Positions 6,552 to 38,900 of a stretch of DNA of 64,000 nt are shown in pieces (within the stretch, counting starts at the first letter, position 1; every line of letters begins with the position of its first letter). Origin of the DNA: Gemmatimonadota bacterium. GTDB lineage: Bacteria; Gemmatimonadota; Gemmatimonadetes; JACCXV01. Where the stretch lies: positions 45,298 to 109,297 of the forward strand of contig DATBJW010000064.1 of NCBI GenBank assembly GCA_036556205.1, in the 5' to 3' direction. The notes under the pieces were generated by a model. That model was given only the letters and a program-made list of their open reading frames with translations, did not search any database and was not told the DNA's origin. The position numbers and the translations under genes are program-made.

Positions 6552-6609
6552 GTTGGCCTCCGCATGGGGACGGGCCGCTGGCAGGGGGCCGGGCGGGTCC
6601 GCGCCCCGT

Positions 6610-6680
6610 TGGGGCGGGAGGATTCGAACCTCCGAATGCCAGATCCAAAATCTGGTGGCTTACCGCTTGCCGACGCCCCA
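6610..6680 (-). tRNA. tRNA-Gln (anticodon UUG)
   Basis: Reverse complement folds as a cloverleaf: acceptor 5'-TGGGGCG / CGCCCCA-3', anticodon arm CCAGA-TTTTGGA-TCTGG (loop TTTTGGA gives anticodon TTG), T-arm GGAGGTTCGAATCCTCC. 71 nt; CCA not encoded. Confidence 0.85.
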
Positions 6681-25484: not shown

Positions 25485-25817
25485 CAGCGGGGGACTCCTC
25501 GGGAGGAAATTGAGAGCGACGGGAAGCCGGAGCGGCGGTACGGGCCAGCAGTCTAGCCTCGACTCAGAGGGCTGTCAAACGCGACCGGCGACCGATTTCC
25601 GCTCACGGGCGCGGCGCTTCCGCCTGCCGCCCGGCCGCGCGCACCTGGGCTCCCGACGGTCGAGATTCTTCCTCCGCGGCCGGGGTTCGTCTTAGCTTTC
25701 GCTCCCGAACGCTCCCCGGGAGTGGTGGGTGGCCTTCCCCAGAGGTTCGGGTTCTTCCCTTCAGTCCGTGCGCTTCAAATCGACGCTCTTCAAGCGTCAG
25801 GCAGCCCGGAGGTGCGT

Positions 25818-27653
25818 ATGCTCGAAGTCACCGTAGGAACGGTGCGCCCGCGCGCGAGGACCAGAGCGATCCTCGCCATCGGGCTCACGGTCGCGATTGT
25901 GCCGGCGGCCTGGGGTCAGCAGGCCCTGGGCAGCCGGATGGTCAAGGGCAGGCCGATCACCGAGTTCCTCTCGGCCGGCGGCCTGGCGGCGGCGCTGGGC
26001 AAGCACGTGGGTTCCGTGCCCCCGGGCTCCGACGCGATCGATCTCACCGGGCCGGCATCCCCGACCGCCTCGACCAATGGGTTCGTGAACGACCCCTGCC
26101 TGGATCCCGGCCCCCTGGTCCCGTTTCCCTTCAACTTCTTCGACGTCGTTCAGAGCGAGACCGAGCTTGCGGTCTGGAACGGCGCGCCGGGCGGCCGGGA
26201 GTTCAAGCCGATCGTTGCCGGCTACAACGACTCCAAGGGCTTCACCACGAACACCCAGGGCCTCTCCGGGTTCGCGTACAACCTGCGTAGCGGCCAGAAA
26301 GACAAGTGGATCGACGGCGGTGGACTTCCGCCGCGCTTTCCGGACACGGGTCCTCCCCCGCCTGGAGGTCTGGCCTTCGACCAGTTCTTCGGCGATCCCA
26401 GCCTCGTCGTGAACCAGCGTACGGGCGAGTTCTTTTACGGGTCGATCTATGTGTCGCCCCAGGGTTATTCCACCATCAGCGTCAGCCGCGGTGTGTTCAA
26501 GAACGCGAAGCCGCAGGGTGCGGAGAGCGTCTCGAACACCCGCTGCGAGGGCCGATCCAACCTGTTCGGAGTGCCGCTGAACCCTCCGGCCGGCAACCAG
26601 CGGATCATCTGGGACAAGCCGGTCGAGGCCGTCCGGCCGCCTTTCCTGGGGCCCGACAACGCCGACTTCCCCGACAAGCCGTTCCTCGCCATCGATCAGA
26701 AGACGGGCACGCTCTACGTGACCTACACGCGCTTCGCCGCGGACGGCCCCACCCCCCTCGAGGTCGTGGTGTCCTTCGACGGCGGGCACACGTGGACTCC
26801 ACCACGGACCATCGTGCCCAACTTGAACGACACGCTGAACCAGGCCGCGATGGCGGTCGTCACTCCCACGGGACGCGTCATCGCCACCTGGTGGTCGCGC
26901 GTCTTCGACCTGAACGACCCCACGTTCCCCATCAAGCGGGCCCAGATCCAGGCCGCGTACTCGGACAACCAGGGCCTGACGTGGAGCGACGTGATTCGCG
27001 TCGCCGCGGCCGAGCCACAGGGCGAGCCGCCCGGCTACAACCGCGAGCGGCCCCTGATCCTTAACGCGCCCTTCATCGCGGTGGACCGGGGCAAGGACGA
27101 CGGCAACGACACGGCCGCCGAGAAGAAGCGCGCGGGCTTCGGGAACGTGTACATCGTCTACACGCGCGGAACGACGCCGCTGCCGGCCATCGCCTTCGAC
27201 AAGGCGGCCGACATCTTCGTCGTGCGCTCGACGAACGACGGAAGGAGCTGGGGCCAACCCGTGCGGATCAACGACGACGGAACGCAGACGATCCACGTCT
27301 TCCCGAACGTGCAGGTCAACAAGGACGGAAAGGTGTTCGTGTCCTGGATCGACCGCCGCCGCGACCCGGTGAACAACATCTTCAACGACACCTTCGCGGC
27401 GGCCTCGACGGACCTGGGCCAGACCTTCGGCCCGAACCTGCGGGTCACGGACGTGCCCGGTACGTCCTGGTTCACGCGCGCGGACGCGGCCCCGAACTTC
27501 GGCGACTACAACTCGAGCGATCTCATCGACTACGACGAGTTCGCCGTGATCTGGGCGGATGGACGCTTCCTGCCGCCCGGCCGGACCAAGGTCCTGCACC
27601 GAGGCACGAAGGCCACGCCGGACGCGCTCTTCACGAGGACGCCGGGACTCTGA
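25818..27653 (+). CDS. Secreted BNR/Asp-box repeat protein (sialidase-like beta-propeller)
   Basis: ATG at 25818 with GGAGGTG upstream. Signal peptide (AILAIGLTVAIVPAAWGQQ). At least four Asp-box motifs: SFDGGHTW, SDNQGLTW, STNDGRSW, STDLGQTF. Confidence 0.75.
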   Translation: MLEVTVGTVRPRARTRAILAIGLTVAIVPAAWGQQALGSRMVKGRPITEFLSAGGLAAALGKHVGSVPPGSDAIDLTGPASPTASTNGFVNDPCLDPGPLVPFPFNFFDVVQSETELAVWNGAPGGREFKPIVAGYNDSKGFTTNTQGLSGFAYNLRSGQKDKWIDGGGLPPRFPDTGPPPPGGLAFDQFFGDPSLVVNQRTGEFFYGSIYVSPQGYSTISVSRGVFKNAKPQGAESVSNTRCEGRSNLFGVPLNPPAGNQRIIWDKPVEAVRPPFLGPDNADFPDKPFLAIDQKTGTLYVTYTRFAADGPTPLEVVVSFDGGHTWTPPRTIVPNLNDTLNQAAMAVVTPTGRVIATWWSRVFDLNDPTFPIKRAQIQAAYSDNQGLTWSDVIRVAAAEPQGEPPGYNRERPLILNAPFIAVDRGKDDGNDTAAEKKRAGFGNVYIVYTRGTTPLPAIAFDKAADIFVVRSTNDGRSWGQPVRINDDGTQTIHVFPNVQVNKDGKVFVSWIDRRRDPVNNIFNDTFAAASTDLGQTFGPNLRVTDVPGTSWFTRADAAPNFGDYNSSDLIDYDEFAVIWADGRFLPPGRTKVLHRGTKATPDALFTRTPGL

Positions 27654-27737
27654 CCCGACGGCTCGAGTCACGAGGAACAGGTGCCGGCCGGCGCCGGTGC
27701 CAAGAGGAGGGGCCCGCCCGGGTGCGGGCCCCTCGCG

Positions 27738-27754
27738 TTGGTACCGACCTTGCC
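27738..27754 (+). promoter_or_regulatory. Candidate sigma-54 (RpoN) -24/-12 promoter upstream of the gspE operon
   Basis: TTGGTAC-CGACC-TTGCC. GG at 27740-41 and GC at 27752-53 with the canonical 10-nt spacing. Matches TGGYAC-N5-TTGC. A sigma-54 activator gene lies at 41033-42373. Confidence 0.5.
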
Positions 27755-28288
27755 CGCCTGTCCGAAAAGGAGCCGGCGTGCAAGCTCCAGCGATCGAGCT
27801 GGGCCTTCCGGCCCCCTTGACGCCGGCGGAACTGATTGACCGTAACTGCTCGGCTCTCTTATAGTTAAAGTTCGCCGTCGCCACGCAGGCTCAGGCCCAA
27901 GACCTGGAACCCGGCCCAGCGCCGGTCCCCCGCGGGCGGACGGGAAAACGCGACGTTCCAGGGCAGGTGCGCCATCAAGGTCAGGCCTCCTTCAGACCGG
28001 CAGCCGCCGCGCGCGGCGGCGCCGAACGGCTCCCCGCTCCCCGGTTCTTCCGCCGACCGCGCGACCGGCCTCGAGGCCGCGCAGCCGGCCGGCACGACCG
28101 GAGGCCGGCTCTCGCTCACCCGCGTCAATGTAGACGAGGGGCTGATCCCCGAGCGGGACTTCCTGCGGGCCCTCGCGCGCCGGGACGGAACCCTGGTCCT
28201 GGAGCGGCTCGCCGAGGCACTGGTCGAGCCCGTCCCCACCAGCCTGCCGCTCCCCTACCTCGAGGAGTTCCTCATCGTCCCGCTCGAG

Positions 28289-29734
28289 ATGGACGAGCGC
28301 ACCGTCAAGATCGCCACGGCGCTCGATCTCGACCTCGCCACCGAGGACGAGATCGCGACCGCCTTCGAGCGTCGGGTGCGGCGCGTGTACGCTCCCAAGG
28401 CCGAGATCCTGGAGTCGCTGCGCCGCTTCTACGGCGCGGCGGGGGACGAGCTCGACGTGGTCGTGCAGGGCGGGTTCGACGCCGACGGCCAGGCCGAGGA
28501 GGACACGGACCCGGCCAACCTGGAGGACCTGGCCAACCAGGCGCCTGTGATCCGGCTCGTGAACTTCCTCATCCTCGAGGCCGCACGCCGGCGCGCCTCC
28601 GACATTCACTTCGAGGCGCTCGAGAACTCGCTCAAGGTGCGCTACCGGATCGACGGGCGGCTGCAGGAAGTGACCACGCCGCCCAAGAAGCTGCAGGCGG
28701 CGATCACCTCGCGCATCAAGATCATGGCCGAGATGAACATCGCCGAGCGGCGCCTGCCGCAGGACGGGCGCATCCGCCTGAAGGTGGCGGACAAGGATCT
28801 GGACCTGCGCATCTCGACGATCCCCACCCTGCACGGCGAGAGCGTGGTCATGCGCCTGCTCGACAAGGGCGGGGCGCGGCTGGATCTCGAGGAGCTGGGC
28901 ATGGACGTGGAGACCGTGGAGCGCTTCGTCCGGCTGATCGGCGCGCCGCACGGCGTGCTGCTCGTGACGGGGCCCACCGGCTCCGGCAAGACGACCACGC
29001 TCTACGCCGCCCTCGAGCGCCTGAACGCGCAGGAGAACAAGATCCTCACGGTCGAGGACCCGGTGGAGTACCAGCTGCCGGGCGTCAACCAGGTGCCCGT
29101 GAAGACCAAGATCGGGATGACCTTCGCGCGCGCGCTGCGCCACATCCTGCGCCAGGACCCCGACATCATCATGGTCGGCGAGATGCGGGACTTCGAGACC
29201 GCCGAGATCGCGATCCAGGCGGCGCTCACGGGCCATCTGGTCTTCAGCACGCTGCACACGAACGACGCGCCGGCGGCCGTGACGCGCCTGATCGAGATGG
29301 GGATCGAGGACTACCTGGTGGCGTCGGCGGTGAACGGCATCCTGGCCCAGCGGCTCGTGCGCACGCTGTGCCAGCGCTGCGCGGCCGAGGAGCCGGCCGA
29401 TCCCGAGGAGCTGGCACAGCTGCTGGGCGAAGGCGAGCGGCTGCGCGTCGAGCGCCTGCGCCAGGATCCCACCGTCGCGGCGCTGCGCGTCAAGCGGCCG
29501 GTCGGCTGTCCGGCCTGCGAGGGCACGGGCTACCGCGGCCGCACCGGCATCTACGAGCTGCTGGCGCTGGACGACGAGCTGCGCGCGAAGATCCCCGAGC
29601 ACGCGGCCGCCGGGCTCCGCGAGTCGGCGCGCGCGAAGGGCATGGTCACGCTGCGCGAGGACGGGCTCCGCAAAGTTGCCCGCGGGATCACCAGCGTGCA
29701 GGAAGTGCTGCGCGTCACCCGCGAGGAGGAGTGA
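28289..29734 (+). CDS. gspE: Type II secretion ATPase GspE. Coordinates from the first canonical ATG; the conserved N-terminal domain continues in-frame upstream to about 28020.
   Basis: Walker A (GPTGSGKTT), Asp box, Walker B, His box, and the tetracysteine zinc motif (CQRC...CPAC) typical of GspE. The upstream in-frame sequence encodes a GspE N1-like domain (RVNVDEGLIPERDFLRALA...LPLPYLEEFLIVPLE) but has no ATG/GTG/TTG. Confidence 0.85.
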   Translation: MDERTVKIATALDLDLATEDEIATAFERRVRRVYAPKAEILESLRRFYGAAGDELDVVVQGGFDADGQAEEDTDPANLEDLANQAPVIRLVNFLILEAARRRASDIHFEALENSLKVRYRIDGRLQEVTTPPKKLQAAITSRIKIMAEMNIAERRLPQDGRIRLKVADKDLDLRISTIPTLHGESVVMRLLDKGGARLDLEELGMDVETVERFVRLIGAPHGVLLVTGPTGSGKTTTLYAALERLNAQENKILTVEDPVEYQLPGVNQVPVKTKIGMTFARALRHILRQDPDIIMVGEMRDFETAEIAIQAALTGHLVFSTLHTNDAPAAVTRLIEMGIEDYLVASAVNGILAQRLVRTLCQRCAAEEPADPEELAQLLGEGERLRVERLRQDPTVAALRVKRPVGCPACEGTGYRGRTGIYELLALDDELRAKIPEHAAAGLRESARAKGMVTLREDGLRKVARGITSVQEVLRVTREEE

Positions 29735-30954
29735 TGGCGAGCTTCACCTACCGGGCCACGGACGCGCGCGGAGAGATCACGAACGGCGTCGTGCAGGGGC
29801 TCAACCTGGCGCAGGTCAAGGTGACCCTGCAGCGCCAGGGGCTCTTCCCGCTCGAGGTCACGGAGCGGGCCGCGGCCACCACGAACGGGGCCGGCGTGGG
29901 AGCCAGCCTGCGGCGATTGGGCTCGGCGCGGGCCGAGCTTCCCGCCTTCACGCGCGCGCTGGCGTCGTTTCTCGGTGCCGGCTTCCCGCTGGACCGCGCG
30001 CTCGGCATGTACGCAGACCTGGCCTCCCATCCGCGCTTCGACGCGGCCGTCAAGCACGTGCGGCGGGAGATCCAGGCCGGACGCAGCTTCGCGGGCGCGC
30101 TGGAGACGGAGCCCGGGCTCTTCGATCCGCTCTACGTGAGCACCGTGGGCGCCGCCGAACGCGCGGGCGCCCTGGAGGCGGCGCTCACGAGCCTGGCCGA
30201 CGCGCTCGAGGAGCGTCGCGAGCTGCGCCAGCAGTTGCAGGGGATCCTGCTCTACCCCGCGCTCATGGCTTGCGTGGGCGCGCTGGCCGTGGCCGTGCTG
30301 CTGATCTTCGTGATCCCGCGCTTCGTGGACATCCTGGAGGGCGGCGGGGCGGCGCTGCCCTGGGCCACGGCCGCGTTGCTGGGGGTGAGCCGCGTCGTGA
30401 CCCGCTTCTGGTGGCTCCTGGGGCTGATCGCGGCACTCGTCTTCGCGCTCGTCCACGGATACCTGAACACCTCCGAGGGCCGGCGCGCCTGGGACCGGCG
30501 CAAGCTGCGCCTGCCCGTCGCCGGGATCCTGATGCGCAAGCTCCTCGCGGCGCGGTTCTGCCGTACGCTGGGAACGCTGCTCCAGAACGGCGTGCCGCTC
30601 ACGAACGCCCTGCGGCTCACGGCCGAGACGCTGGGGAACACCGCCGCCGTGCAGGCCGTGCGCGACGTGCACGGTCGCGTCAAGGAAGGCGAGAGCCTGG
30701 CCTCGGCGCTCGGCCGTTTCGACGTGTTCCCGCCCGCGGTGCTGCGCATGATCGCCGTCGGCGAGGAGTCGGGGAAGCCCGAGGACATGCTGTTCAGGGC
30801 AGCTGAGTTCTACGAAGGCGAGACGCGGCGCAACCTGCGCACGCTGGTCGGGCTGGTGGAGCCGGCTCTGATCCTGCTGCTGGGGGGCGTCGTCGGATTC
30901 GTGGCGCTGGCCATGATCCAGGCCGTGTTCAGCATCAACGACGTGCCGCTGTGA
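29734..30954 (+). CDS. gspF: Type II secretion inner-membrane platform protein GspF
   Basis: Two GspF/PilC repeats with three TM segments. ATG overlaps the gspE stop (TGATG). The 995-aa ORF-track version starting at 27967 is a wrong-frame read-through. Confidence 0.9.
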   Translation: MASFTYRATDARGEITNGVVQGLNLAQVKVTLQRQGLFPLEVTERAAATTNGAGVGASLRRLGSARAELPAFTRALASFLGAGFPLDRALGMYADLASHPRFDAAVKHVRREIQAGRSFAGALETEPGLFDPLYVSTVGAAERAGALEAALTSLADALEERRELRQQLQGILLYPALMACVGALAVAVLLIFVIPRFVDILEGGGAALPWATAALLGVSRVVTRFWWLLGLIAALVFALVHGYLNTSEGRRAWDRRKLRLPVAGILMRKLLAARFCRTLGTLLQNGVPLTNALRLTAETLGNTAAVQAVRDVHGRVKEGESLASALGRFDVFPPAVLRMIAVGEESGKPEDMLFRAAEFYEGETRRNLRTLVGLVEPALILLLGGVVGFVALAMIQAVFSINDVPL

Positions 30955-32342: not shown

Positions 32343-33382
32343 AGCGCTCCCGGCGCCGCGGCGTGGCCCTGGTGCTCGCCCTCTGGGTCCTCGTCCTCTT
32401 CTCCTTCGTGGGCCTGGAGCTGAGCACCTTCTCGCGGGCCGACACGGGGGGCGCGCGCTACCTGAAGGAGCGCCTCCAGGCCTACTACCTCGCGCGCGGC
32501 GGCGTCGAGCGCGGGATCGGGCTGGTGAACGACTACTTCCGGCGTTACCCCGCGAACGCTCTCGCCGCCAAGAACCTGGGGCGCGATCTGAGCACGCTGA
32601 AGGAGTCGCGGCCTCCGCTCCTGACGTGGCTCGCCGACCGCGGCCTGGCCCGCGTGCCGCTCGGCGCGGGCAGCTACAGCCTGCGCTTCGAAGACCTCGC
32701 CGCTCGCGTGAACGTGAACCGCACCGATCCGCTCGTGCTGGCGAACCTGATCCGGCTCACCGGTGTTGACGACGCCCGCTCGCGTCAGCTCGCCGACGCG
32801 GTTCTGGACTGGGTCGACGCCGACGACCAGCACCGCCCCCAGGGAGCCGAGCGGGACTGGTACGAGCGCCACCGCCTCCGCCCCCCGCGCAACGGCCCCG
32901 TGACGCAGCTCGAGGAGCTGCTCCTCGTGAAAGGCATGACGCGCGACATCCTCTTCGGCGGCGAGCGGACCAAGGGGTTGGTCCCCTTCCTCACGACCGA
33001 GGGACCGGGCAAGATCAACGTGAACTCGGCACCGGCCGAAGTGCTGCTGGCCGTCCCAGGGCTGGATCAGGGGACGGTCTCGCGCATCCTGAGCACGCGG
33101 CGCACGCGCTCGCTGCGCAGCCTGGCCGAGGTTCTGGGCGCCGATCCCGAGGCGCAACTCGGCCGCAATCCCGTGCTCGGCCTCCTCTCGTTCGACACGA
33201 CCGAGATGGCCGTGGAGGCGCAGGGGATGCTGGCCGGCGCGCCGGCCCGCAGCGTGGTGCGCGCCACGGTCGGCGTCATGCCCGCGGGGCTCGTCGTGCG
33301 CGGCTGGCGCGACGACTTCCCGTCGGGACTGGCGCTGGCTCCCGCATCGTCCGCCGCCGACTCAACCGGTCCGCAATCGTGA
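32339..33382 (+). CDS. gspK: Type II secretion minor pseudopilin GspK-like
   Basis: N-terminal RGVALVLALWVLVLFSFVGLELS. Size ~347 aa. Helix-hairpin-helix-like segment (INVNSAPAEVLLAVPGLDQGTVSRIL) is typical of GspK. Confidence 0.7.
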   Translation: MKRSRRRGVALVLALWVLVLFSFVGLELSTFSRADTGGARYLKERLQAYYLARGGVERGIGLVNDYFRRYPANALAAKNLGRDLSTLKESRPPLLTWLADRGLARVPLGAGSYSLRFEDLAARVNVNRTDPLVLANLIRLTGVDDARSRQLADAVLDWVDADDQHRPQGAERDWYERHRLRPPRNGPVTQLEELLLVKGMTRDILFGGERTKGLVPFLTTEGPGKINVNSAPAEVLLAVPGLDQGTVSRILSTRRTRSLRSLAEVLGADPEAQLGRNPVLGLLSFDTTEMAVEAQGMLAGAPARSVVRATVGVMPAGLVVRGWRDDFPSGLALAPASSAADSTGPQS

Positions 33383-34812
33383 AGCGCTGCCTGGGTATCG
33401 AGATCGGCCGCGCGTTCGCGGCGATCTGCGAGGTCGCCCCGGACGGCGAGGGCCCCGGCCGGCATCGCCTCGCCCGGCACGCCTTCGCCGAAGGCGAGCT
33501 GCCCACGCCCGACCAGCTGGCCGACACCTGTCTGCAGCTGGCGCTCGAAACCGGGATCCGCGAGCGCGCGGCCGTGCTGGCGCTCGCCCGCTCGCTCACC
33601 TACACGAAGACCGTCCAGCTGCCGCCGCTTCCGAACGACGACCGGCTGAAGCTGGTCACGGTCCAGCCCGAGCGGTTCTTCCCGGTCTCCGACCGGGCTC
33701 TCGTATGCGACCTCGAGCCGGGCACGAACGGTGGACCCTCGGTCGCCCATGCCACCGAGGCCGATCAGCTCGAGGCCGTGGTCGAGGCGCTCCAGAGTCG
33801 CGGCTTCCGCATCCGCGCCGTGCTGCCGGCTTCAGCGGCCCTGCAGCGCGCGGCGCTGCGGGGCATCCCGGGGCTGTCGGACGCCAACTGGCTGCTCGTG
33901 CGGCCCGAGGCGGGAGGGATCACCGCCAACGCCTTTCGGGCCCGCAGCCTGCGCGTCTCGCGCCGCATGGAGAACTTCAGCGGGGATCCCGAAGGGGCGT
34001 TCCGCGAGATCGCGCGCACCGTAGCCAGCGCCTTCGAGGATGGGGCGGCGGTCAGCGAGGTGCGGTGGTCCGGTTGGAACGGGCTCCCCGACGCGGTCCG
34101 CCGCGCGGGCGCCGCGAGCCTGCCGGTGCCGGTGCGGGACCTCTCGGAGCTGCCGGTCGAGAGCGAAGGGCTCGTCGCGTACGGCGCCGCGCTGGCGGGT
34201 CTCGAGGAGGCGCCGCGGCCCGACCTGCTGCCGCCCGCCGTTCGGGCGCGCCGGCGCCAGCAGGGGCGCTGGATCACGATGGCCTGCGGCGCGCTGGCGC
34301 TGCTGGCCGCCCTGGCGCTCATCTGGGCCCTGGGGCAGCGGCAGGATCGCCAGCTGGCCCAGCTCGAGGCGGAGACCCGCAAGGCGCGGGCCGGTGCGCT
34401 CGCCGCGGCCGACGCCCGCGACGCGCTGAAAGCGCTCGAGGACCGCATCGCCGCCGTCCAGGGCCGCATGGAGCAGCGCGCGGCCTGGCTGAGGATGATG
34501 AAGGAGATCAGCTCGGCGCTGCCGACGAGCGCCTGGATCGGAAGCCTCTCCATCGCCCCGGACGGCGATGTGAGCCTCTCGGGATACGCCACGACGGCCT
34601 CGGCCCTCGTTCCCGCTTTGCAGGCCACCGACGCCCTGGACCGCGTCGAGTTCGCCGCTCCCGCCACGCGCGCCAACATCGGGCGCCGCGAGCTGGAGGC
34701 GTTCAACATCCGCGCGGTCCTGCAGGGGAGCCCGGCCGACAGCTCCCGCGCGGCCAATCCGCAGGGGACCGTGGAGAACCCCGACGCCGGCCTGGTCGGA
34801 GACGAGGAGTGA
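33379..34812 (+). CDS. gspL: GspL-like inner-membrane assembly protein: cytoplasmic actin-like (PilM-like) domain, one TM helix, periplasmic PilN/GspL-like domain
   Basis: Cytoplasmic domain 1-300. TM (WITMACGALALLAALALIWAL). Coiled coil, then a periplasmic ferredoxin-like domain. Architecture equals GspL, or a PilM-PilN fusion. Confidence 0.65.
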   Translation: MKRCLGIEIGRAFAAICEVAPDGEGPGRHRLARHAFAEGELPTPDQLADTCLQLALETGIRERAAVLALARSLTYTKTVQLPPLPNDDRLKLVTVQPERFFPVSDRALVCDLEPGTNGGPSVAHATEADQLEAVVEALQSRGFRIRAVLPASAALQRAALRGIPGLSDANWLLVRPEAGGITANAFRARSLRVSRRMENFSGDPEGAFREIARTVASAFEDGAAVSEVRWSGWNGLPDAVRRAGAASLPVPVRDLSELPVESEGLVAYGAALAGLEEAPRPDLLPPAVRARRRQQGRWITMACGALALLAALALIWALGQRQDRQLAQLEAETRKARAGALAAADARDALKALEDRIAAVQGRMEQRAAWLRMMKEISSALPTSAWIGSLSIAPDGDVSLSGYATTASALVPALQATDALDRVEFAAPATRANIGRRELEAFNIRAVLQGSPADSSRAANPQGTVENPDAGLVGDEE

Positions 34813-35407: not shown

Positions 35408-36288
35408 CGGCCCGCGAGCGGCGCACCGTGCGGCTGGGTCTCGTGGCCGCCGCCATGATCCTCCTCTACGTGCTGGCGCTGGACCCGTACCTGACGGCCC
35501 GCGCGAAGACGCGTGACCTGATCGAGCAGCAGCAGGCCCAGCTCTCCCGGCTGGTGGCCCTGGACCGGTCGCTGCCGATCTACCGCCGGCGCCTGCAGGC
35601 GGCGCAGGCCACCTGGGACGCCGAGGTCCGGCCGCGGCTCGTGGCCGGGGACGTGCCCGCCGTCGCCGCTTCGACCCTTTCCAACGAGGTGCGACGCGTC
35701 GCCGCCCAGAGCTTCCTCGACGTCGAGCGCGAGAACGTGCTGGCCGCGACCGAGAAGGACGGCCTCACCGCGATCCCCGTGCAGTTCTCGCTGCGGGGCG
35801 ACATCTACGGCCTGCGGGACTTCCTGGCCGCGCTCGAGTCCACGCGTACGTTCCTGAACCTGCGGGAGCTGCGCGTCACGGCGATCACGGGCGGATTCAA
35901 CCAGGTCCTTCCCGTCACGGCGGCTCCGCTCCAGATGACGGTCACGGTGGAGGGCTACCTGGGCGGGGCGCCGGCCGCGGGTGAGCCGGCGGCCCCGCAG
36001 CCGCCGGGCGCAGCTGCGCCGGCCGGCGCCGAGGGAACGACCGTCACCCCGAGCCCACCGGCCGCGGAGCCTGCTCCGACGAGCTCCGTCGAGCCCGGCC
36101 CGCCGAGCGGCGTCCCTGCCCCTGCCGGGCCTTCGCAGGAGGGAGCGCGGGCGGAACCGGGCGCGGCCCCGCGAGCGGGCCTCGGCGGCGCACCCGAGCG
36201 GCCGGCCGGGGCGCCGGCCGGGGCGGACGTCCGTCGCATCCCGCGCGGCGGCGCGGCCGCGCCCGCTCCGGGGGACGCGCGCCGATGA
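35404..36288 (+). CDS. gspM: GspM/PilO-like type II secretion inner-membrane protein with an extended Pro/Ala-rich C-terminal tail
   Basis: N-terminal TM (LGLVAAAMILLYVLAL), coiled coil, ferredoxin-like periplasmic domain (LTAIPVQFSLRGDIYGLRDFLAALES...LRELRV). ~110-aa low-complexity tail. Confidence 0.6.
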   Translation: MTARERRTVRLGLVAAAMILLYVLALDPYLTARAKTRDLIEQQQAQLSRLVALDRSLPIYRRRLQAAQATWDAEVRPRLVAGDVPAVAASTLSNEVRRVAAQSFLDVERENVLAATEKDGLTAIPVQFSLRGDIYGLRDFLAALESTRTFLNLRELRVTAITGGFNQVLPVTAAPLQMTVTVEGYLGGAPAAGEPAAPQPPGAAAPAGAEGTTVTPSPPAAEPAPTSSVEPGPPSGVPAPAGPSQEGARAEPGAAPRAGLGGAPERPAGAPAGADVRRIPRGGAAAPAPGDARR

Positions 36289-36407
36289 GGCTCCCCGAGG
36301 GACCTGCGCCGGCCCACGCGGGTCGGAACGATCCGGGCGCGCGCATGCACGCGAACGGCAACCCCGGCGAGTCGGGCGAACGAGCGGATCGCCAACGCGG
36401 AGAGACG

Positions 36408-38900
36408 ATGACGCGAGACCTCCCGGACATTCCCAGCGGCCACGGCCGTCGCCGGCCGTGCGTCGCTGCGCGCCGGGCCCTTCTCGCGGCGCTGTTCCTC
36501 GTCTCGGCGCTGGCCGCTCCGGCCGTCGCTCCCGCCCGCGCGCAGGAGCCCGGCGTGCGCCGGGAGGGCGGGCTGGTCTACTTCAACCTCCAGAACGTGG
36601 ACATCCGCTCGGCCCTGGACACGATCAGCCAGGTGCTGGGGATCAGCTACGTGCTCGGCGGAAGCGTGCCCACGGGCACGCCGATCACGATCAGCACCGC
36701 GGCCGGGATCCCCCTCGAGAAGGTGCCCGACCTGCTGGACTCGGTCCTGCGCACCTACAACCTGGCGCTCATCAAGACCGGGGACGTCTTCACGGTCATC
36801 CAGGCCGGCGAGGGCCAGCCGGCGGGGGAAGTGACGCGCACCCAGGTTTACGTCTACTACCTGCGGAACGCCAACGCCGTGGACGTTGCGAACGTGCTCT
36901 CGCAGCTCTTCCAGGGATCAGCTCCCGCCGGCGGGTTCGTGCGCCGCAGCCCTCCTGCGCAGGGCCTCTCGCGGCGCCTCGAGCAACAGAACCTACCCTA
37001 CGCGGACACGCAGCAGAACCCCTTCGGCATGGGCGGGGTGAACGACCAGGTCCCGCAGGCGACCGAGGCGAACACGCCCGTGCGCGTGATCCAGGGCGAG
37101 CTCGTCGGCCAGACGTCGATCGTGCCGGACGAGACCACGAACAGCCTGATCATCAAGACCGCGCCCGAGAACTACCCTTCGATCCAGGAGACGATCGCCA
37201 AGCTCGACATGCGGCCCGCGCAGGTGCTAATCGAGGTCACCATCGCCGAGATCACGCTGGACAAGTCGATGCAGTTCGGCATCGAGTACCTGCTCAGGGG
37301 CAAGACCGAGATCGGCGGCGAGACCGTGCGCGGCGAGCTCGAGCTCCAGAGCCCGACTCCGATTGTGGGCGGCCTGCGCGCGCACGTCTTCGACAGCGGG
37401 AACGTGGACGTGGTCCTGCGGGCGCTGGCCGCGGACGCCCGCGTCAACGTGCTCTCGACGCCGCGCGTGCTCGCCGTCAACAACCACGAGGCTCGGATCC
37501 TGATCGGCTCCGAGGTTCCCTTCGTTCAGTTCTCGCGCGCGACCACGGGCGAGGCCATCGACCAGGTCGTGCAGTACCGCAACGTGGGCCTGGAGCTCAC
37601 CGTCACGCCGCGCATCAACCCTGACCGCTACATCAGCATGGACCTGCTGCAGCAGGTCTCCGCGCTCACGAACGACGTCCTATTCGACGCTCCCATCATC
37701 ACGACGCGGGAGGCGCAGACCTCACTGGTGGTAGGTGACAACCAGACGATCGTGCTGGGCGGGTTGATGGAAGACCGCAAGGAGAAGCGCCGCAACGGGA
37801 TTCCCATCCTGAAGGACATTCCGGTCCTGGGCTGGCTCTTCGGCACCACGTCCGAGCGCACGGTGAAGACCGAGCTGGTCCTCACCCTCACGCCCTACAT
37901 CGTCGAGTCGGACCAGGAGCTGCAGCGCCTGCGCCAGGAGATCGAGTCCCACAGCGAGCTCTACCAGAAGGAGCTCGAGAAGCGCCGCGAGGAGGGGCAC
38001 TTCGTGCCCGGCGACCTGACTCCCGAGCGAATGCAGTCGGCTCCCGTCGCGCCGGCGGGACCGGCACCAACGCCAACGCCGCTTCCGGCCGACACGACCA
38101 CGCTCGCGCCGCGCGACACGGCGCGGGCGGCCGCCATGCCGGCCATGGGCGAGCCGGCCCAGGCGCCCGTGGTCGGCGCAGAGCCGGAGCCCCGCGTCAG
38201 CAGCCTGGAGCGAGGGCCGGAGATCAGCCAGCCGGCTCCCGAGGGCGGCGGGGGGAATGCCGATGCTCCCTCGCCTTCGACCTACGGCGCGCCCTCGTCG
38301 GCGGGAGAGACTCCGGAGGTGAATCAGCCCGCGGCGCCGAGTCCCCCGCCGGCGGAGGCCGTCGAGCCGACTCCAGACGAACCGAGCGGCGAGCAGGTCG
38401 AGACCTTCGAGCCGACTCCGGGCGAGCCGGGTGCCGAGCAACAGGTCGAGACGTTCGAGCCGCCTGCCGGCGAACCGGGCGGCGGGCACGTGGAGACGTT
38501 CGAGGCGCCCGCCGCTGAACCGGGCGGCGGGCACGTGGAGACGTTCGAGGCGCCCGCCGGCGAACCGGGCGGCGAAGCCCGGCAGACGCCACCGTCCCCC
38601 GCCGAGCCGGGAGGCGCCCCTGAGACGCCAGAGCCGCCCCTCGCCGAGCCGGGCGGCCCGAGCTTCCGGGTGCAGGTCATGGCCGTCCCCGATCAGCGCG
38701 CGGCCGAGGACGAAGCCGACCGGCTGCGCGGCATCCTCGGACCGGAGCTCCCGGTCTACGTGGAGCGGGAGCGCCCCTTCTACAAGGTCCGGGTGGGCGA
38801 CTTCCCCACCAAGGACGAAGCGCACGCCGCGGTCGTCAGGCTGCGCGGGCTGGGCTACAACGACGCCTGGACGGTCACCGTTCCGGGCTCGGGCGGCTAG
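36408..38900 (+). CDS. gspD: Type II secretion secretin GspD fused to a C-terminal SPOR domain through a repetitive linker
   Basis: ATG at 36408; signal peptide (ALLAALFLVSALAAPAVAPARAQEP). N0-N3 domains, then the secretin core (VLSTPRVLAVNNHEARILIGSEVPFV...NVGLELTVTPRIN...TIVLGGLMED...IPILKDIPVLGWLFG...VLTLTPYIV). Then a ~230-aa Pro/Glu-rich linker with 4x VETFEAPAGEPGGGH repeats. Then a SPOR-like domain (FRVQVMAVPDQRAAEDEADRLRG...PFYKVRVGDFPTKDEAHAAVVRLRGLGY). Confidence 0.85.
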   Translation: MTRDLPDIPSGHGRRRPCVAARRALLAALFLVSALAAPAVAPARAQEPGVRREGGLVYFNLQNVDIRSALDTISQVLGISYVLGGSVPTGTPITISTAAGIPLEKVPDLLDSVLRTYNLALIKTGDVFTVIQAGEGQPAGEVTRTQVYVYYLRNANAVDVANVLSQLFQGSAPAGGFVRRSPPAQGLSRRLEQQNLPYADTQQNPFGMGGVNDQVPQATEANTPVRVIQGELVGQTSIVPDETTNSLIIKTAPENYPSIQETIAKLDMRPAQVLIEVTIAEITLDKSMQFGIEYLLRGKTEIGGETVRGELELQSPTPIVGGLRAHVFDSGNVDVVLRALAADARVNVLSTPRVLAVNNHEARILIGSEVPFVQFSRATTGEAIDQVVQYRNVGLELTVTPRINPDRYISMDLLQQVSALTNDVLFDAPIITTREAQTSLVVGDNQTIVLGGLMEDRKEKRRNGIPILKDIPVLGWLFGTTSERTVKTELVLTLTPYIVESDQELQRLRQEIESHSELYQKELEKRREEGHFVPGDLTPERMQSAPVAPAGPAPTPTPLPADTTTLAPRDTARAAAMPAMGEPAQAPVVGAEPEPRVSSLERGPEISQPAPEGGGGNADAPSPSTYGAPSSAGETPEVNQPAAPSPPPAEAVEPTPDEPSGEQVETFEPTPGEPGAEQQVETFEPPAGEPGGGHVETFEAPAAEPGGGHVETFEAPAGEPGGEARQTPPSPAEPGGAPETPEPPLAEPGGPSFRVQVMAVPDQRAAEDEADRLRGILGPELPVYVERERPFYKVRVGDFPTKDEAHAAVVRLRGLGYNDAWTVTVPGSGG
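38395..38585 (+). repeat. 45-bp tandem repeat inside gspD (two perfect copies plus two degenerate copies; 15-aa repeat VETFEAPAGEPGGGH)
   Basis: gaaccgggcggcgggcacgtggagacgttcgaggcgcccgcc occurs twice in tandem, flanked by diverged copies (gagccgggtgccgagcaacaggtcgagacgttcgagccgcctgcc). Confidence 0.8.

What the first reader, a model, noticed from the sequence alone, without database searches (positions are those of the whole stretch)
27866..28289. GspE N-terminal domain encoded in-frame upstream of the first canonical start codon
- The first ATG of gspE (28289) lies in the middle of the conserved N1 domain (…LPLPYLEEFLIVPLE-M-DERTVKIATA…).
- The same frame stays open upstream back to a TAA at 27866 and encodes convincing GspE N-terminal sequence (RLSLTRVNVDEGLIPERDFLRALARRDGTLVLERLAEAL).
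- That 140-codon stretch contains no ATG, GTG or TTG at all.
- Either translation starts at a non-canonical codon (CTG/ATC/ATT), or there is an indel in the assembly, or the protein truly starts mid-domain. A mid-domain start would delete the GspL-interaction surface.
- This matters for any functional inference about the apparatus.
Basis: seen in the sequence. Interest (0 to 1): 0.55.

Follow-up and report, generated by a model that had tools for sequence, protein, structure and literature searches.

The report
gspE likely starts at ATC codon
The secretion-motor gene gspE in this Gemmatimonadota genome has no ordinary start codon ahead of its conserved N-terminal domain. It most likely begins at a rare ATC codon that its relatives share, which explains why public annotations of this gene disagree and are mostly too short.

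Summary
The gspE frame is open from TAA 27866-27868 to ATG 28289, with no ATG, GTG or TTG in 140 codons (about 5e-5 by chance). The sequence from 28106 to 28288 is real coding sequence. It is conserved in relatives with mostly third-position changes, matches the PilB/GspE N-terminal domain, and is predicted to fold with high confidence. Met-28289 is not conserved; relatives have I, V or L there.

The best explanation is a non-canonical ATC start at 27974, which gives a 586-aa protein.
- ATC 27974 is the only table-11 start codon between the stop and CTG 28142.
- An in-frame ATC occurs in all eight relatives of this subclade. Six of them share it as an aligned CCATC, 4-5 nt after an SD-like GGTG/GGAGG.
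- The ATC stays in frame although the linker after it varies from 75 to 106 codons.
- Upstream of the ATC, conserved DNA carries 1- and 2-nt indels and no coding-type substitutions, so it is a leader.
- Two other independent assemblies (L002, L087) also have no canonical start.

An assembly error, NCBI's CTG 28142 start and the ATG 28289 start are all disfavoured. ATC starts are rare but documented (Deinococcus dnaA). This is a new member of a known kind and has not been tested experimentally.

The parts
27836..27865 (+). Sigma-70-like promoter, TTGACC-18 nt-TATAGT. The predicted transcription start is near 27872.
   Evidence: It is the only promoter-like site in 27500-28500, against 0.1 expected. 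It is nearly identical in L088 and L001, and L084 has a similar TATACT box.
27866..27868 (+). In-frame TAA that closes the gspE frame upstream.
27872..27973 (+). Probable untranslated leader of about 100 nt.
   Evidence: The DNA is conserved with L088 and L001, but it carries 1-nt and 2-nt indels, and the window and L001 read the same bases in different frames. The five L001/L088 differences I read by eye in the 39-nt block before the ATC (GGACGGG...ATC) all fall on codon positions 1 or 2 (read). There is no Rfam match and no significant fold.
27965..27969 (+). Shine-Dalgarno-like AGGTG, 4 nt before the ATC.
   Evidence: A G-rich purine motif (AGGTG, GAGGTG, GGGGAGG, CGGTG or GAGGGA) lies 4-5 nt upstream of the ATC in all seven loci, and in L088 (AGGTG). 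Other genes in the window carry GGAGG-type motifs before their starts.
27974..27976 (+). Proposed initiation codon ATC (AUC).
   Evidence: It is the only table-11 start codon in frame between 27866 and 28142. An in-frame ATC occurs in L001, L002, L082, L083, L084, L087 and L088; in all of these except L087 it aligns with the window's as an invariant CCATC.
27977..28105 (+). P/A/G-rich N-terminal linker, residues 2-44, predicted to be disordered.
   Evidence: pLDDT is below 50 for residues 1-45. Its length varies between relatives, but only by whole codons. The first codons show synonymous changes (V GTC/GTA, P CCT/CCC/CCG, D GAC/GAT, R CGG/CGC). The sister subclade has an analogous linker of 60-70 aa after a GTG start.
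28106..28288 (+). Conserved first half of the N-terminal (MshEN/PilB-N-like) domain, residues 45-105, which lies upstream of the first ATG.
28142..28144 (+). CTG used as the start in the NCBI record (HEY7462101.1, 530 aa). It is probably only Leu-57.
   Evidence: P0001 begins MIPERDFL.... The GAGGGG lies directly against it. Conserved, well-modelled residues 45-56 lie upstream.
28289..28291 (+). First ATG, residue Met-106. It is an internal hydrophobic position. IMG uses it as the start (481 aa).
   Evidence: Relatives have ATC, ATC, GTC, ATG, ATC and CTC here. P0122 is the 481-aa version. The 481-aa version scores 628.1, below the TIGR02533 cut-off of 630.25.
27974..29734 (+). Proposed full gspE coding sequence: 586 aa plus TGA, which overlaps the gspF ATG (TGATG).

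Best explanation
gspE, the first gene of a type II secretion operon, is translated from a non-canonical AUC codon at 27974. The AUC is positioned by an SD-like AGGUG 4 nt upstream, on an mRNA that probably starts near 27872 from the TTGACC/TATAGT promoter. The product is a 586-aa ATPase: a disordered P/A/G-rich linker of about 44 residues, then an N-terminal MshEN/PilB-N-like domain (residues about 46-154), then the T2SSE ATPase core.

Shown here:
- No canonical start exists.
- The sequence upstream of the ATG is coding and under selection.
- The ATC and its SD-like motif are conserved, and the frame after the ATC is preserved.
- The frame before the ATC is not preserved.

Inferred:
- The ribosome initiates at this AUC.
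- The weak codon keeps GspE synthesis low or makes it sensitive to IF3, as with infC and pcnB in E. coli.
For: 1. The window has no ATG/GTG/TTG between TAA 27866 and 28289. ATC 27974 is the only table-11 start codon before CTG 28142.
2. Residues 45-105 must be translated. They are conserved in relatives with mostly third-position changes (220/87/609, against 153/105/428 downstream of the ATG). They align to solved PilB N-termini. They are modelled at pLDDT 88-95. More distant Gemmatimonadota homologues have a canonical Met just before the equivalent FLRSRRSVDEGL.
3. An in-frame ATC with an SD-like motif 4-5 nt upstream occurs in window, L001, L002, L082, L083, L084 and L088 as an aligned invariant CCATC. 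L087 has one too, in a different context (ATC ATC GTA ATC, not aligned with the others).
4. The ATC-to-YLEEFL distance is 282, 291, 276, 285, 318, 285 and 225 nt. All are multiples of 3 although the length varies.
5. The codons after the ATC give I-K-V-x-P-x-x-D-R-x-P with synonymous wobble.
6. The DNA upstream of the ATC is conserved but its frame is not. The window has GGTGCGCC where relatives have GGTGCCGCC or GGTGCCACC, and there is a further 2-nt indel. L001/L088 differences there avoid third positions.
7. L002 and L087, which are independent assemblies, also have no canonical start between the upstream stop and the domain. In L002 the ATC is again the only table-11 start before the EGL codon.
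8. Where canonical codons do exist in relatives, their positions differ: -13, +2, +5, +13 and +19/+22 codons from the ATC. Annotated lengths scatter accordingly: 481, 502, 516, 530, 535, 572, 574, 584, 597, 599 and 675 aa.
9. AUC initiation has precedent. The dnaA ATC start in Deinococcus deserti was shown by N-terminal proteomics (PMC2830850). AUC gives 1-2% of AUG in E. coli and yields N-terminal Met (bioRxiv 10.1101/063800).
Against: - There is no direct evidence: no proteomics, Ribo-seq or reads.
- AUC is a poor initiator in E. coli (1-2% of AUG).
- ATC is the usual Ile codon in this GC-rich genome, so the codon's identity alone says little.
- The linker is only weakly constrained (372/298/446 by codon position).
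- Only nine loci from one clade were available, and they are related, so the number of independent events is small.
- In L087 the context differs (ATC ATC GTA ATC, no CCATC).
- L088, L001, L082, L084 and P0123 have canonical codons nearby that could serve in those genomes.
- The sister subclade uses GTG.
- A second ATC at 28145 also has a GAGG 5 nt upstream.
Confidence: 0.68

Rival explanations
1. Translation starts at CTG 28142, as in the NCBI record (530 aa), or at the adjacent ATC 28145.
For: CTG is an allowed table-11 start and is what NCBI annotated. The 530-aa form still passes TIGR02533 (641.8 against 630.25). ATC 28145 has a GAGG 5 nt upstream.
Against: Residues 45-56 (RLSLTRVNVDEG), upstream of this site, are conserved with synonymous changes (V GTA/GTG/GTC, T ACC/ACG/ACT, G GGG/GGT/GGC). 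They align to the PilB QRLGSILVKNG helix and belong to the well-modelled domain (H50-54). The GAGGGG abuts the CTG with no spacer. Codon 58 is GTC, CTT, CTC or CTG in relatives, so ATC 28145 is not conserved. More distant homologues start upstream of the equivalent segment.
Confidence: 0.1
2. The protein really starts at ATG 28289 (481 aa), so it lacks the first half of its N-terminal domain. The upstream open frame would then be a relic or a chance feature of a GC-rich sequence.
For: It is the only canonical start. IMG calls it on six contigs (P0122).
Against: The Met is I, V or L in five of seven relatives. No SD lies within 20 nt. The upstream 61 codons show the same purifying-selection pattern as the gene body. 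The ATG sits at the end of a strand inside a compact domain. The truncated product falls below the GspE cut-off (628.1 against 630.25).
Confidence: 0.04
3. An assembly or sequencing error (an indel or a substitution) in this MAG contig hides a canonical start.
For: The window lacks one base that five relatives have in GGTGC(C)GCC, a CC run just before the ATC. L088, which is more than 90% identical, has an in-frame GTG 13 codons upstream of the ATC where the window has GCG.
Against: Restoring the base puts the leader in a frame that still has no ATG/GTG/TTG in the window. From the ATC onward the window is in frame with all relatives. L002 and L087, from other studies, show the same absence. 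The exact 481-aa product occurs on six JGI contigs and was called from the internal ATG there. The L088 GTG is not shared by L001 or any other relative.
Confidence: 0.05
4. Initiation in the leader or linker does not use ATC 27974. It could occur at a codon outside table 11, at several weak sites, or by re-initiation or frameshifting from GTG 27967.
For: E. coli shows measurable initiation from many codons. GTG 27967 overlaps the SD-like motif.
Against: The GTG is 7 nt from the ATC in the window and L083, 8 nt in four relatives, and absent in L002 and L087. It therefore lies in different frames, and in L001 it gives a 5-codon ORF. No other conserved codon or motif was found in the linker.
Confidence: 0.1

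Closest known systems
dnaA of Deinococcus deserti, D. geothermalis and D. radiodurans, which starts at ATC (Baudet et al. 2010, PMC2830850)
   Same: A conserved bacterial gene whose orthologues share an ATC start. Gene callers gave heterogeneous, wrong N-termini until the nucleotide sequences were aligned. It is the same codon in a GC-rich genome.
   Different: There the start was proven by TMPP-labelled N-terminal peptides. Here it rests on comparative sequence evidence only. The gene, the phylum and the long disordered linker after the start are all different.
infC and pcnB of E. coli, which start at AUU
   Same: A near-cognate AUN start that is conserved in orthologues and keeps expression low or IF3-dependent (and established knowledge).
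   Different: IF3 autoregulation is demonstrated for infC. No regulatory role has been shown here. The codon is AUC rather than AUU.
GspE and PilB secretion ATPases with an N-terminal MshEN/T2SSE_N domain (TIGR02533; Geobacter PilB 5ZFR/5TSG/6OLJ; Vibrio EpsE 4PHT/1P9R)
   Same: T2SSE core (E 2.5e-141). The GspE equivalog score is above its cut-off. The N-domain aligns to PilB from residue about 35-40. The gene sits in a gspE-F-G-H-K-M-D operon.
   Different: Only the second helical half-motif of the MshEN domain is present. The first is replaced by a disordered P/A/G-rich linker. Typical family members start at ATG.

Membership tests
Type II secretion ATPase GspE (NCBIfam TIGR02533 equivalog) | Whole-protein score above the curated cut-off of 630.25 bits | tested here: met
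   641.3 bits for the 586-aa ATC-start protein and 641.8 for the 530-aa form. The 481-aa ATG-start form scores 628.1 and fails. The PilB model TIGR02538 scores 574, below its cut-off of 675.65.
Type II secretion ATPase GspE (NCBIfam TIGR02533 equivalog) | T2SSE ATPase core with a P-loop | tested here: met
   Pfam PF00437, E 2.5e-141, full length 3-370/370. The GPTGSGKTTT motif is invariant in alignment A2.
Type II secretion ATPase GspE (NCBIfam TIGR02533 equivalog) | Encoded with the other T2SS components | tested here: met
   Downstream lie T2SSF, T2SSG, GspH, a further pseudopilin, T2SSK, a 477-aa protein with a PilN domain, a weak T2SSC-like protein, T2SSM_b, and a secretin with a GspD N0 domain. 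The order is the same in relatives.
Type II secretion ATPase GspE (NCBIfam TIGR02533 equivalog) | N-terminal domain binds the cytoplasmic domain of GspL | not testable with these tools
   This is known for Vibrio EpsE-EpsL (established knowledge; PDB 4PHT is listed). phmmer did not align the EpsE N1 domain to this protein (4pht aligns from chain residue 77).
Genes initiated at a near-cognate (non-ATG/GTG/TTG) codon | No canonical start can account for conserved, selected coding sequence | tested here: met
   This holds in the window, L002 and L087.
Genes initiated at a near-cognate (non-ATG/GTG/TTG) codon | The near-cognate codon is conserved and in frame across orthologues, and coding signatures begin at it | tested here: met
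   An in-frame ATC is present in all 8 loci of the subclade. The frame is kept after it and broken before it.
Genes initiated at a near-cognate (non-ATG/GTG/TTG) codon | A ribosome-binding site at a working distance | tested here: inconclusive
   An SD-like AGGTG, GGAGG or GAGGGA lies 4-5 nt upstream in all loci. The match is short, in a G-rich background, and was not scored statistically.
Genes initiated at a near-cognate (non-ATG/GTG/TTG) codon | An N-terminal peptide or an initiating-ribosome footprint at the codon | not testable with these tools
   No proteomic or Ribo-seq data are available for this uncultured lineage.
MshEN c-di-GMP-binding domain (PF05157) | Pfam match above the gathering score | tested here: met
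   44.8 bits against 23.1, E 1.2e-11. The match covers only model positions 16-88 of 90.
MshEN c-di-GMP-binding domain (PF05157) | Two tandem RLGxx(L/V/I)(L/V/I)xxG(L/V/I)(L/V/I)xxxx(L/V/I)xxxLxxQ motifs (feature recalled from the literature on MshEN) | tested here: not met
   This was judged by inspection. Distant homologues show two copies in the A2 consensus (LGxxLxxxGxxxxExLxxAL ... ERLGExLVALGxxxExDxLRALAxQ). The window has one degenerate copy (RLSLTRVNVDEGLIPERDFLRALARR), and the place of the first is taken by the disordered linker. c-di-GMP binding is therefore doubtful.

The most novel reading that the evidence does not exclude
The conserved AUC start, together with the conserved leader and the first ten codons, is a regulatory device and not merely a tolerated weak start. 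It would make synthesis of the T2SS motor ATPase depend on IF3 level and initiation fidelity, and so on growth state or stress. That would be a post-transcriptional throttle at the head of a secretion operon, analogous to infC and pcnB but in a secretion system of Gemmatimonadota.
Probability: 0.2. Interest if true: 0.55.

Novelty: new member of a known kind. Interest (0 to 1): 0.38.

Why it matters
Public records give this one gene eleven different lengths, from 481 to 675 aa. Most of them either cut into the N-terminal domain or add untranslated leader. That domain is the part of GspE/PilB ATPases that docks the motor to the inner-membrane platform, or senses c-di-GMP, so a wrong start changes any inference about whether the secretion apparatus is intact. 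The 481-aa call even drops below the GspE family cut-off.

The case also adds a comparative example of a conserved AUC initiation codon outside Deinococcus. It shows that standard gene callers, which allow only ATG, GTG and TTG, fail systematically on such genes in uncultured GC-rich phyla.

Tried and rejected
- **Rfam.** A scan of 27500-28500 at E up to 10 gave only chance hits, so there is no riboswitch or known leader.
- **Leader folding.** The window leader is not more stable than shuffles (z +1.19). L001 gave z -2.27. The two disagree, so I make no structural claim.
- **Metagenome scans.** The first, using the N-terminal alignment, returned 600 pattern matches and no true relative. The second, using a 47-nt degenerate DNA pattern for PTSLPLPYLEEFL, found nothing. 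The sample of relatives could not be enlarged this way.
- **Genome contigs.** This gave only one close relative (L002). The other hits were about 55% identical or less.
- **Second protein search.** A search with the N-terminal 149 aa found only P0121, from the GTG-start sister subclade.
- **Missing DNA.** DNA for P0003, P0004 and P0121 could not be fetched, and P0010 is not on record.
- **GTG 27967 as the start.** Rejected, because its offset to the gspE frame differs between relatives and it is absent in two of them.
- **The 995-aa ORF from 27967.** This is an out-of-frame artefact of a GC-rich sequence that runs into gspF.
- **tRNA scan.** The window holds only tRNA-Gln, so nothing can be said about the initiator tRNA.
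Full report
**1. The observation**

The window has 71% G+C. ATG 28289 opens a 481-aa ORF that ends at 29734. The same frame is open upstream as far as TAA 27866-27868.

A codon count shows no ATG, GTG or TTG among those 140 codons. The only other table-11 start codons there are ATC at 27974, 28145 and 28274, and CTG at 28142, 28163, 28193, 28199, 28220 and 28244. In the gspE body 6.9% of codons are ATG, GTG or TTG. The chance of none in 140 codons is therefore about 5e-5, and of none in 105 codons about 6e-4. Among the coding-like ORFs between 15 and 50 kb of the window, this one has the longest stretch before its first canonical start.

**2. Is the upstream stretch coding?**

It is coding from 28106 onward.
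- **Composition.** GC by codon position for 28109-28288 is 0.82/0.38/0.93, against 0.72-0.77/0.39-0.43/0.95-0.96 in the gene body.
- **Family models.** Pfam MshEN (E 1.2e-11) and the NCBIfam GspE equivalog TIGR02533 both span the ATG. The GspE model begins at 28241, and the PilB model aligns from 28115.
- **Relatives.** Proteins at 81-89% identity, all from Gemmatimonadota metagenome assemblies, conserve RRLSFTRANVDEGLIPEREFLRALARRD... upstream of the Met.
- **Substitution pattern.** In a codon alignment of seven loci, differences in residues 45-105 (numbered from ATC 27974) fall 220/87/609 on codon positions 1/2/3. Downstream of the ATG the figures are 153/105/428.
- **Solved structures.** Full-length alignment to Geobacter PilB pairs GGRLSLTRVNVDEGLIPERDFL with GGQQRLGSILVKNGLVTEPDL.
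- **Predicted structure.** AlphaFold2 on a 54-sequence alignment models residues 46-154 as one domain at pLDDT 88-95. Met-106 (28289) sits at the end of strand 101-106. Residues 1-45 have pLDDT below 50.
- **The Met itself.** It is not conserved. Relatives have ATC, ATC, GTC, ATG, ATC and CTC at that codon.
- **Family cut-off.** The 481-aa product starts at model position 21 and scores 628.1, below the curated cut-off of 630.25. Longer versions score about 641.5.

**3. Where does translation start?**

I obtained DNA for eight close relatives:

| Locus | Source |
|---|---|
| L001 | GCA_040961615.1 |
| L002 | JBHENL010000157.1 |
| L082 | Logan SRR26798519 |
| L083 | ENA ERZ1758346 |
| L084 | JGI 3300051851 |
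| L087 | JGI 3300065626 |
| L088 | GCA_973515355.1 (more than 90% identical to the window) |
| L085, L086 | sister subclade |

In the window's subclade every locus has an in-frame ATC. In seven of the eight (all but L087) it aligns as an invariant CCATC. A G-rich purine motif lies 4-5 nt upstream:

| Locus | Sequence up to the ATC |
|---|---|
| window | AGGTGcgccATC |
| L001, L084 | AGGTGccgccATC |
| L088 | AGGTGccaccATC |
| L082 | CGGTGccgccATC |
| L083 | GAGGTGttccATC |
| L002 | GGGGAGGcccgccATC |
| L087 | GAGGGAcgcgATC |

Other genes in the window carry GGAGG-type motifs before their starts, so this organism does use SD pairing.

Four arguments place initiation at this ATC.

*(a) It is the only available codon.* In the window and in L002 it is the only table-11 start codon between the upstream stop and the codon for the conserved Leu of DEGL. 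L087 likewise has no canonical start in that interval. The conserved segment RLSLTRVNVDEG lies upstream of that Leu.

*(b) The frame is preserved after it.* The distance from the ATC to the YLEEFL anchor is 282, 291, 276, 285, 318, 285 and 225 nt. The linker length varies between 75 and 106 codons, but always by whole codons.

*(c) The following codons look translated.* They read I-K-V-x-P-x-x-D-R-x-P with synonymous variation: GTC/GTA, CCT/CCC/CCG, GAC/GAT and CGG/CGC.

*(d) The frame is not preserved before it.* Immediately upstream the DNA is still conserved (GGACGGGAAAACGC.ACGT...GGCAGGTG). The window has GGTGCGCC where five relatives have GGTGCCGCC or GGTGCCACC, and window against L001 has a further 2-nt indel. 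As a result the same bases are read as GRENATFQGRC in the window and as DGKTPRITAGA in L001. Reading by eye, the five L001/L088 differences I counted in the 39-nt block before the ATC all fall on codon positions 1 or 2. That is the opposite of a coding pattern.

Upstream of this leader lies a promoter-like TTGACC-18-TATAGT at 27836-27865. It is the only such site in the kilobase, and it is nearly identical in L088 and L001. This predicts a leader of about 100 nt.

**4. Why the annotations disagree**

Canonical codons near the ATC occur in some relatives, but at different places:
- GTG 13 codons upstream in L088
- GTG 2 codons downstream in P0123
- GTG 5 codons downstream in L001
- TTG 13 codons downstream in L084
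- GTG and ATG 19 and 22 codons downstream in L082
- only far-upstream ATG or TTG in L083
- none in the window, L002 or L087

Gene callers therefore produced proteins of 481, 502, 516, 530, 535, 572, 574, 584, 597, 599 and 675 aa for what is one orthologue. NCBI's record for this very sequence (HEY7462101.1, 530 aa) starts at CTG 28142. IMG's (P0122) starts at ATG 28289.

The sister subclade (L085, L086, P0121) begins with a conserved GTG (VSATTP(E/Q)TR) followed by an A/P/S-rich linker of 60-70 residues. A long disordered N-terminal linker is therefore normal for this family. More distant Gemmatimonadota homologues (about 55% identical) have an ordinary Met shortly before the equivalent of RLSLTR.

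**5. Rivals**

- **CTG 28142 or ATC 28145.** These would remove the conserved, well-modelled residues 45-56. The GAGGGG abuts the CTG with no spacer. Codon 58 is not conserved as ATC.
- **ATG 28289.** The problems are set out in section 2.
- **An assembly error.** This does not explain the same situation in L002 and L087. Restoring the one base the window lacks in the spacer does not create a canonical start either.
- **GTG 27967.** It lies at a different frame offset in different relatives and is absent in two.
- **A structured RNA in the leader.** I found no evidence for one.

**6. Comparison with what is known**

ATC and AUC starts are rare but established. In Deinococcus deserti the dnaA ATC start was demonstrated by N-terminal labelling. 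It is shared by D. geothermalis and D. radiodurans, whose annotations had heterogeneous N-termini (PMC2830850). In E. coli, AUC, AUA, AUU and CUG initiate at 1-2% of the AUG level and give N-terminal Met. infC and pcnB use AUU (bioRxiv 10.1101/063800).

The present case has the same kind of evidence as the Deinococcus reannotation, but without the proteomics. The protein is a GspE by the NCBIfam cut-off, and it heads a gspE-F-G-H-pseudopilin-K-(PilN-domain protein)-(C-like)-M-D operon. Its N-domain is more PilB/MshEN-like than EpsE-N1-like by sequence, and it keeps only one of the two helical half-motifs.

**7. Verdict**

The anomaly is real, and an artefact is unlikely. The most likely explanation is a conserved AUC initiation codon at 27974, with confidence about 0.68. 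The remaining probability is spread over other weak starts and error. This is a new member of a known kind. Its value lies in correct annotation and in any functional reading of this T2SS, and it is of moderate interest as an example of a lineage-conserved AUC start. Whether the weak codon has a regulatory role is speculation.

Noticed in passing
window 27965-27976, compared with L001, L082, L084 and L088: The window has a 4-nt SD-ATC spacer (CGCC). Four close relatives have 5 nt (CCGCC or CCACC). The missing base lies in a CC run, so this could be real variation or a small assembly error. Either way it does not create or remove a canonical start.
   Followed up: yes
window 27836-27973; L001 2840-2985; L088: The promoter-like TTGACC/TATAGT and blocks of the roughly 100-nt leader (GGACGGGAAAACGC, GGCAGGTG) are conserved at the DNA level in close relatives, yet they are not coding. 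Their function is unknown. There is no Rfam match and no consistent fold.
   Followed up: partly
window 27974-28105, compared with the A2 consensus: This clade appears to have lost the first of the two helical RLGxxL...G...L half-motifs of the MshEN domain. A disordered P/A/G-rich linker takes its place. c-di-GMP binding by this GspE is therefore doubtful.
   Followed up: partly
window 27709-27732: A perfect GC-rich hairpin, GGGGCCCGC-cccgggt-GCGGGCCCC, lies 56 nt after the stop of the upstream BNR-repeat gene (25722-27653). It has no T tract. It is probably a terminator or a transcript-stabilising element. L001 has an analogous hairpin followed by a T run (L001 about 2637-2668).
   Followed up: no
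window 36285-38900: The GspD-like secretin (871 aa) carries a C-terminal SPOR (peptidoglycan-binding) domain at residues 793-864. This is not part of the classical proteobacterial GspD.
   Followed up: no
window 33379-34812: In the position where gspL is expected there is a 477-aa protein whose only Pfam match is a C-terminal PilN domain. It may be a fused PilM/PilN-like GspL equivalent, and so the likely partner of the GspE N-domain.
   Followed up: no
L088 3300-4520, and the P0003 locus: In two relatives gspF is called as two ORFs (133 + 269 aa, and 191 + 229 aa) instead of one of 406 aa. This suggests frameshifts, either real or from assembly, in those contigs.
   Followed up: no
L085 2480-2503; L086 194-217: In the sister subclade the conserved GTG start has its GGAGG 12 nt upstream, which is a long spacing. 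That start may also deserve checking.
   Followed up: no
window 29732-29736: The gspE stop and the gspF start overlap as TGATG, with GAGGAGGAG inside the end of gspE serving as the SD. This points to translational coupling of gspF to gspE. A weak gspE start could therefore also limit gspF.
   Followed up: no
window 6608-6680 (- strand): tRNA-Gln (anticodon TTG) is the only tRNA gene in the window.
   Followed up: no
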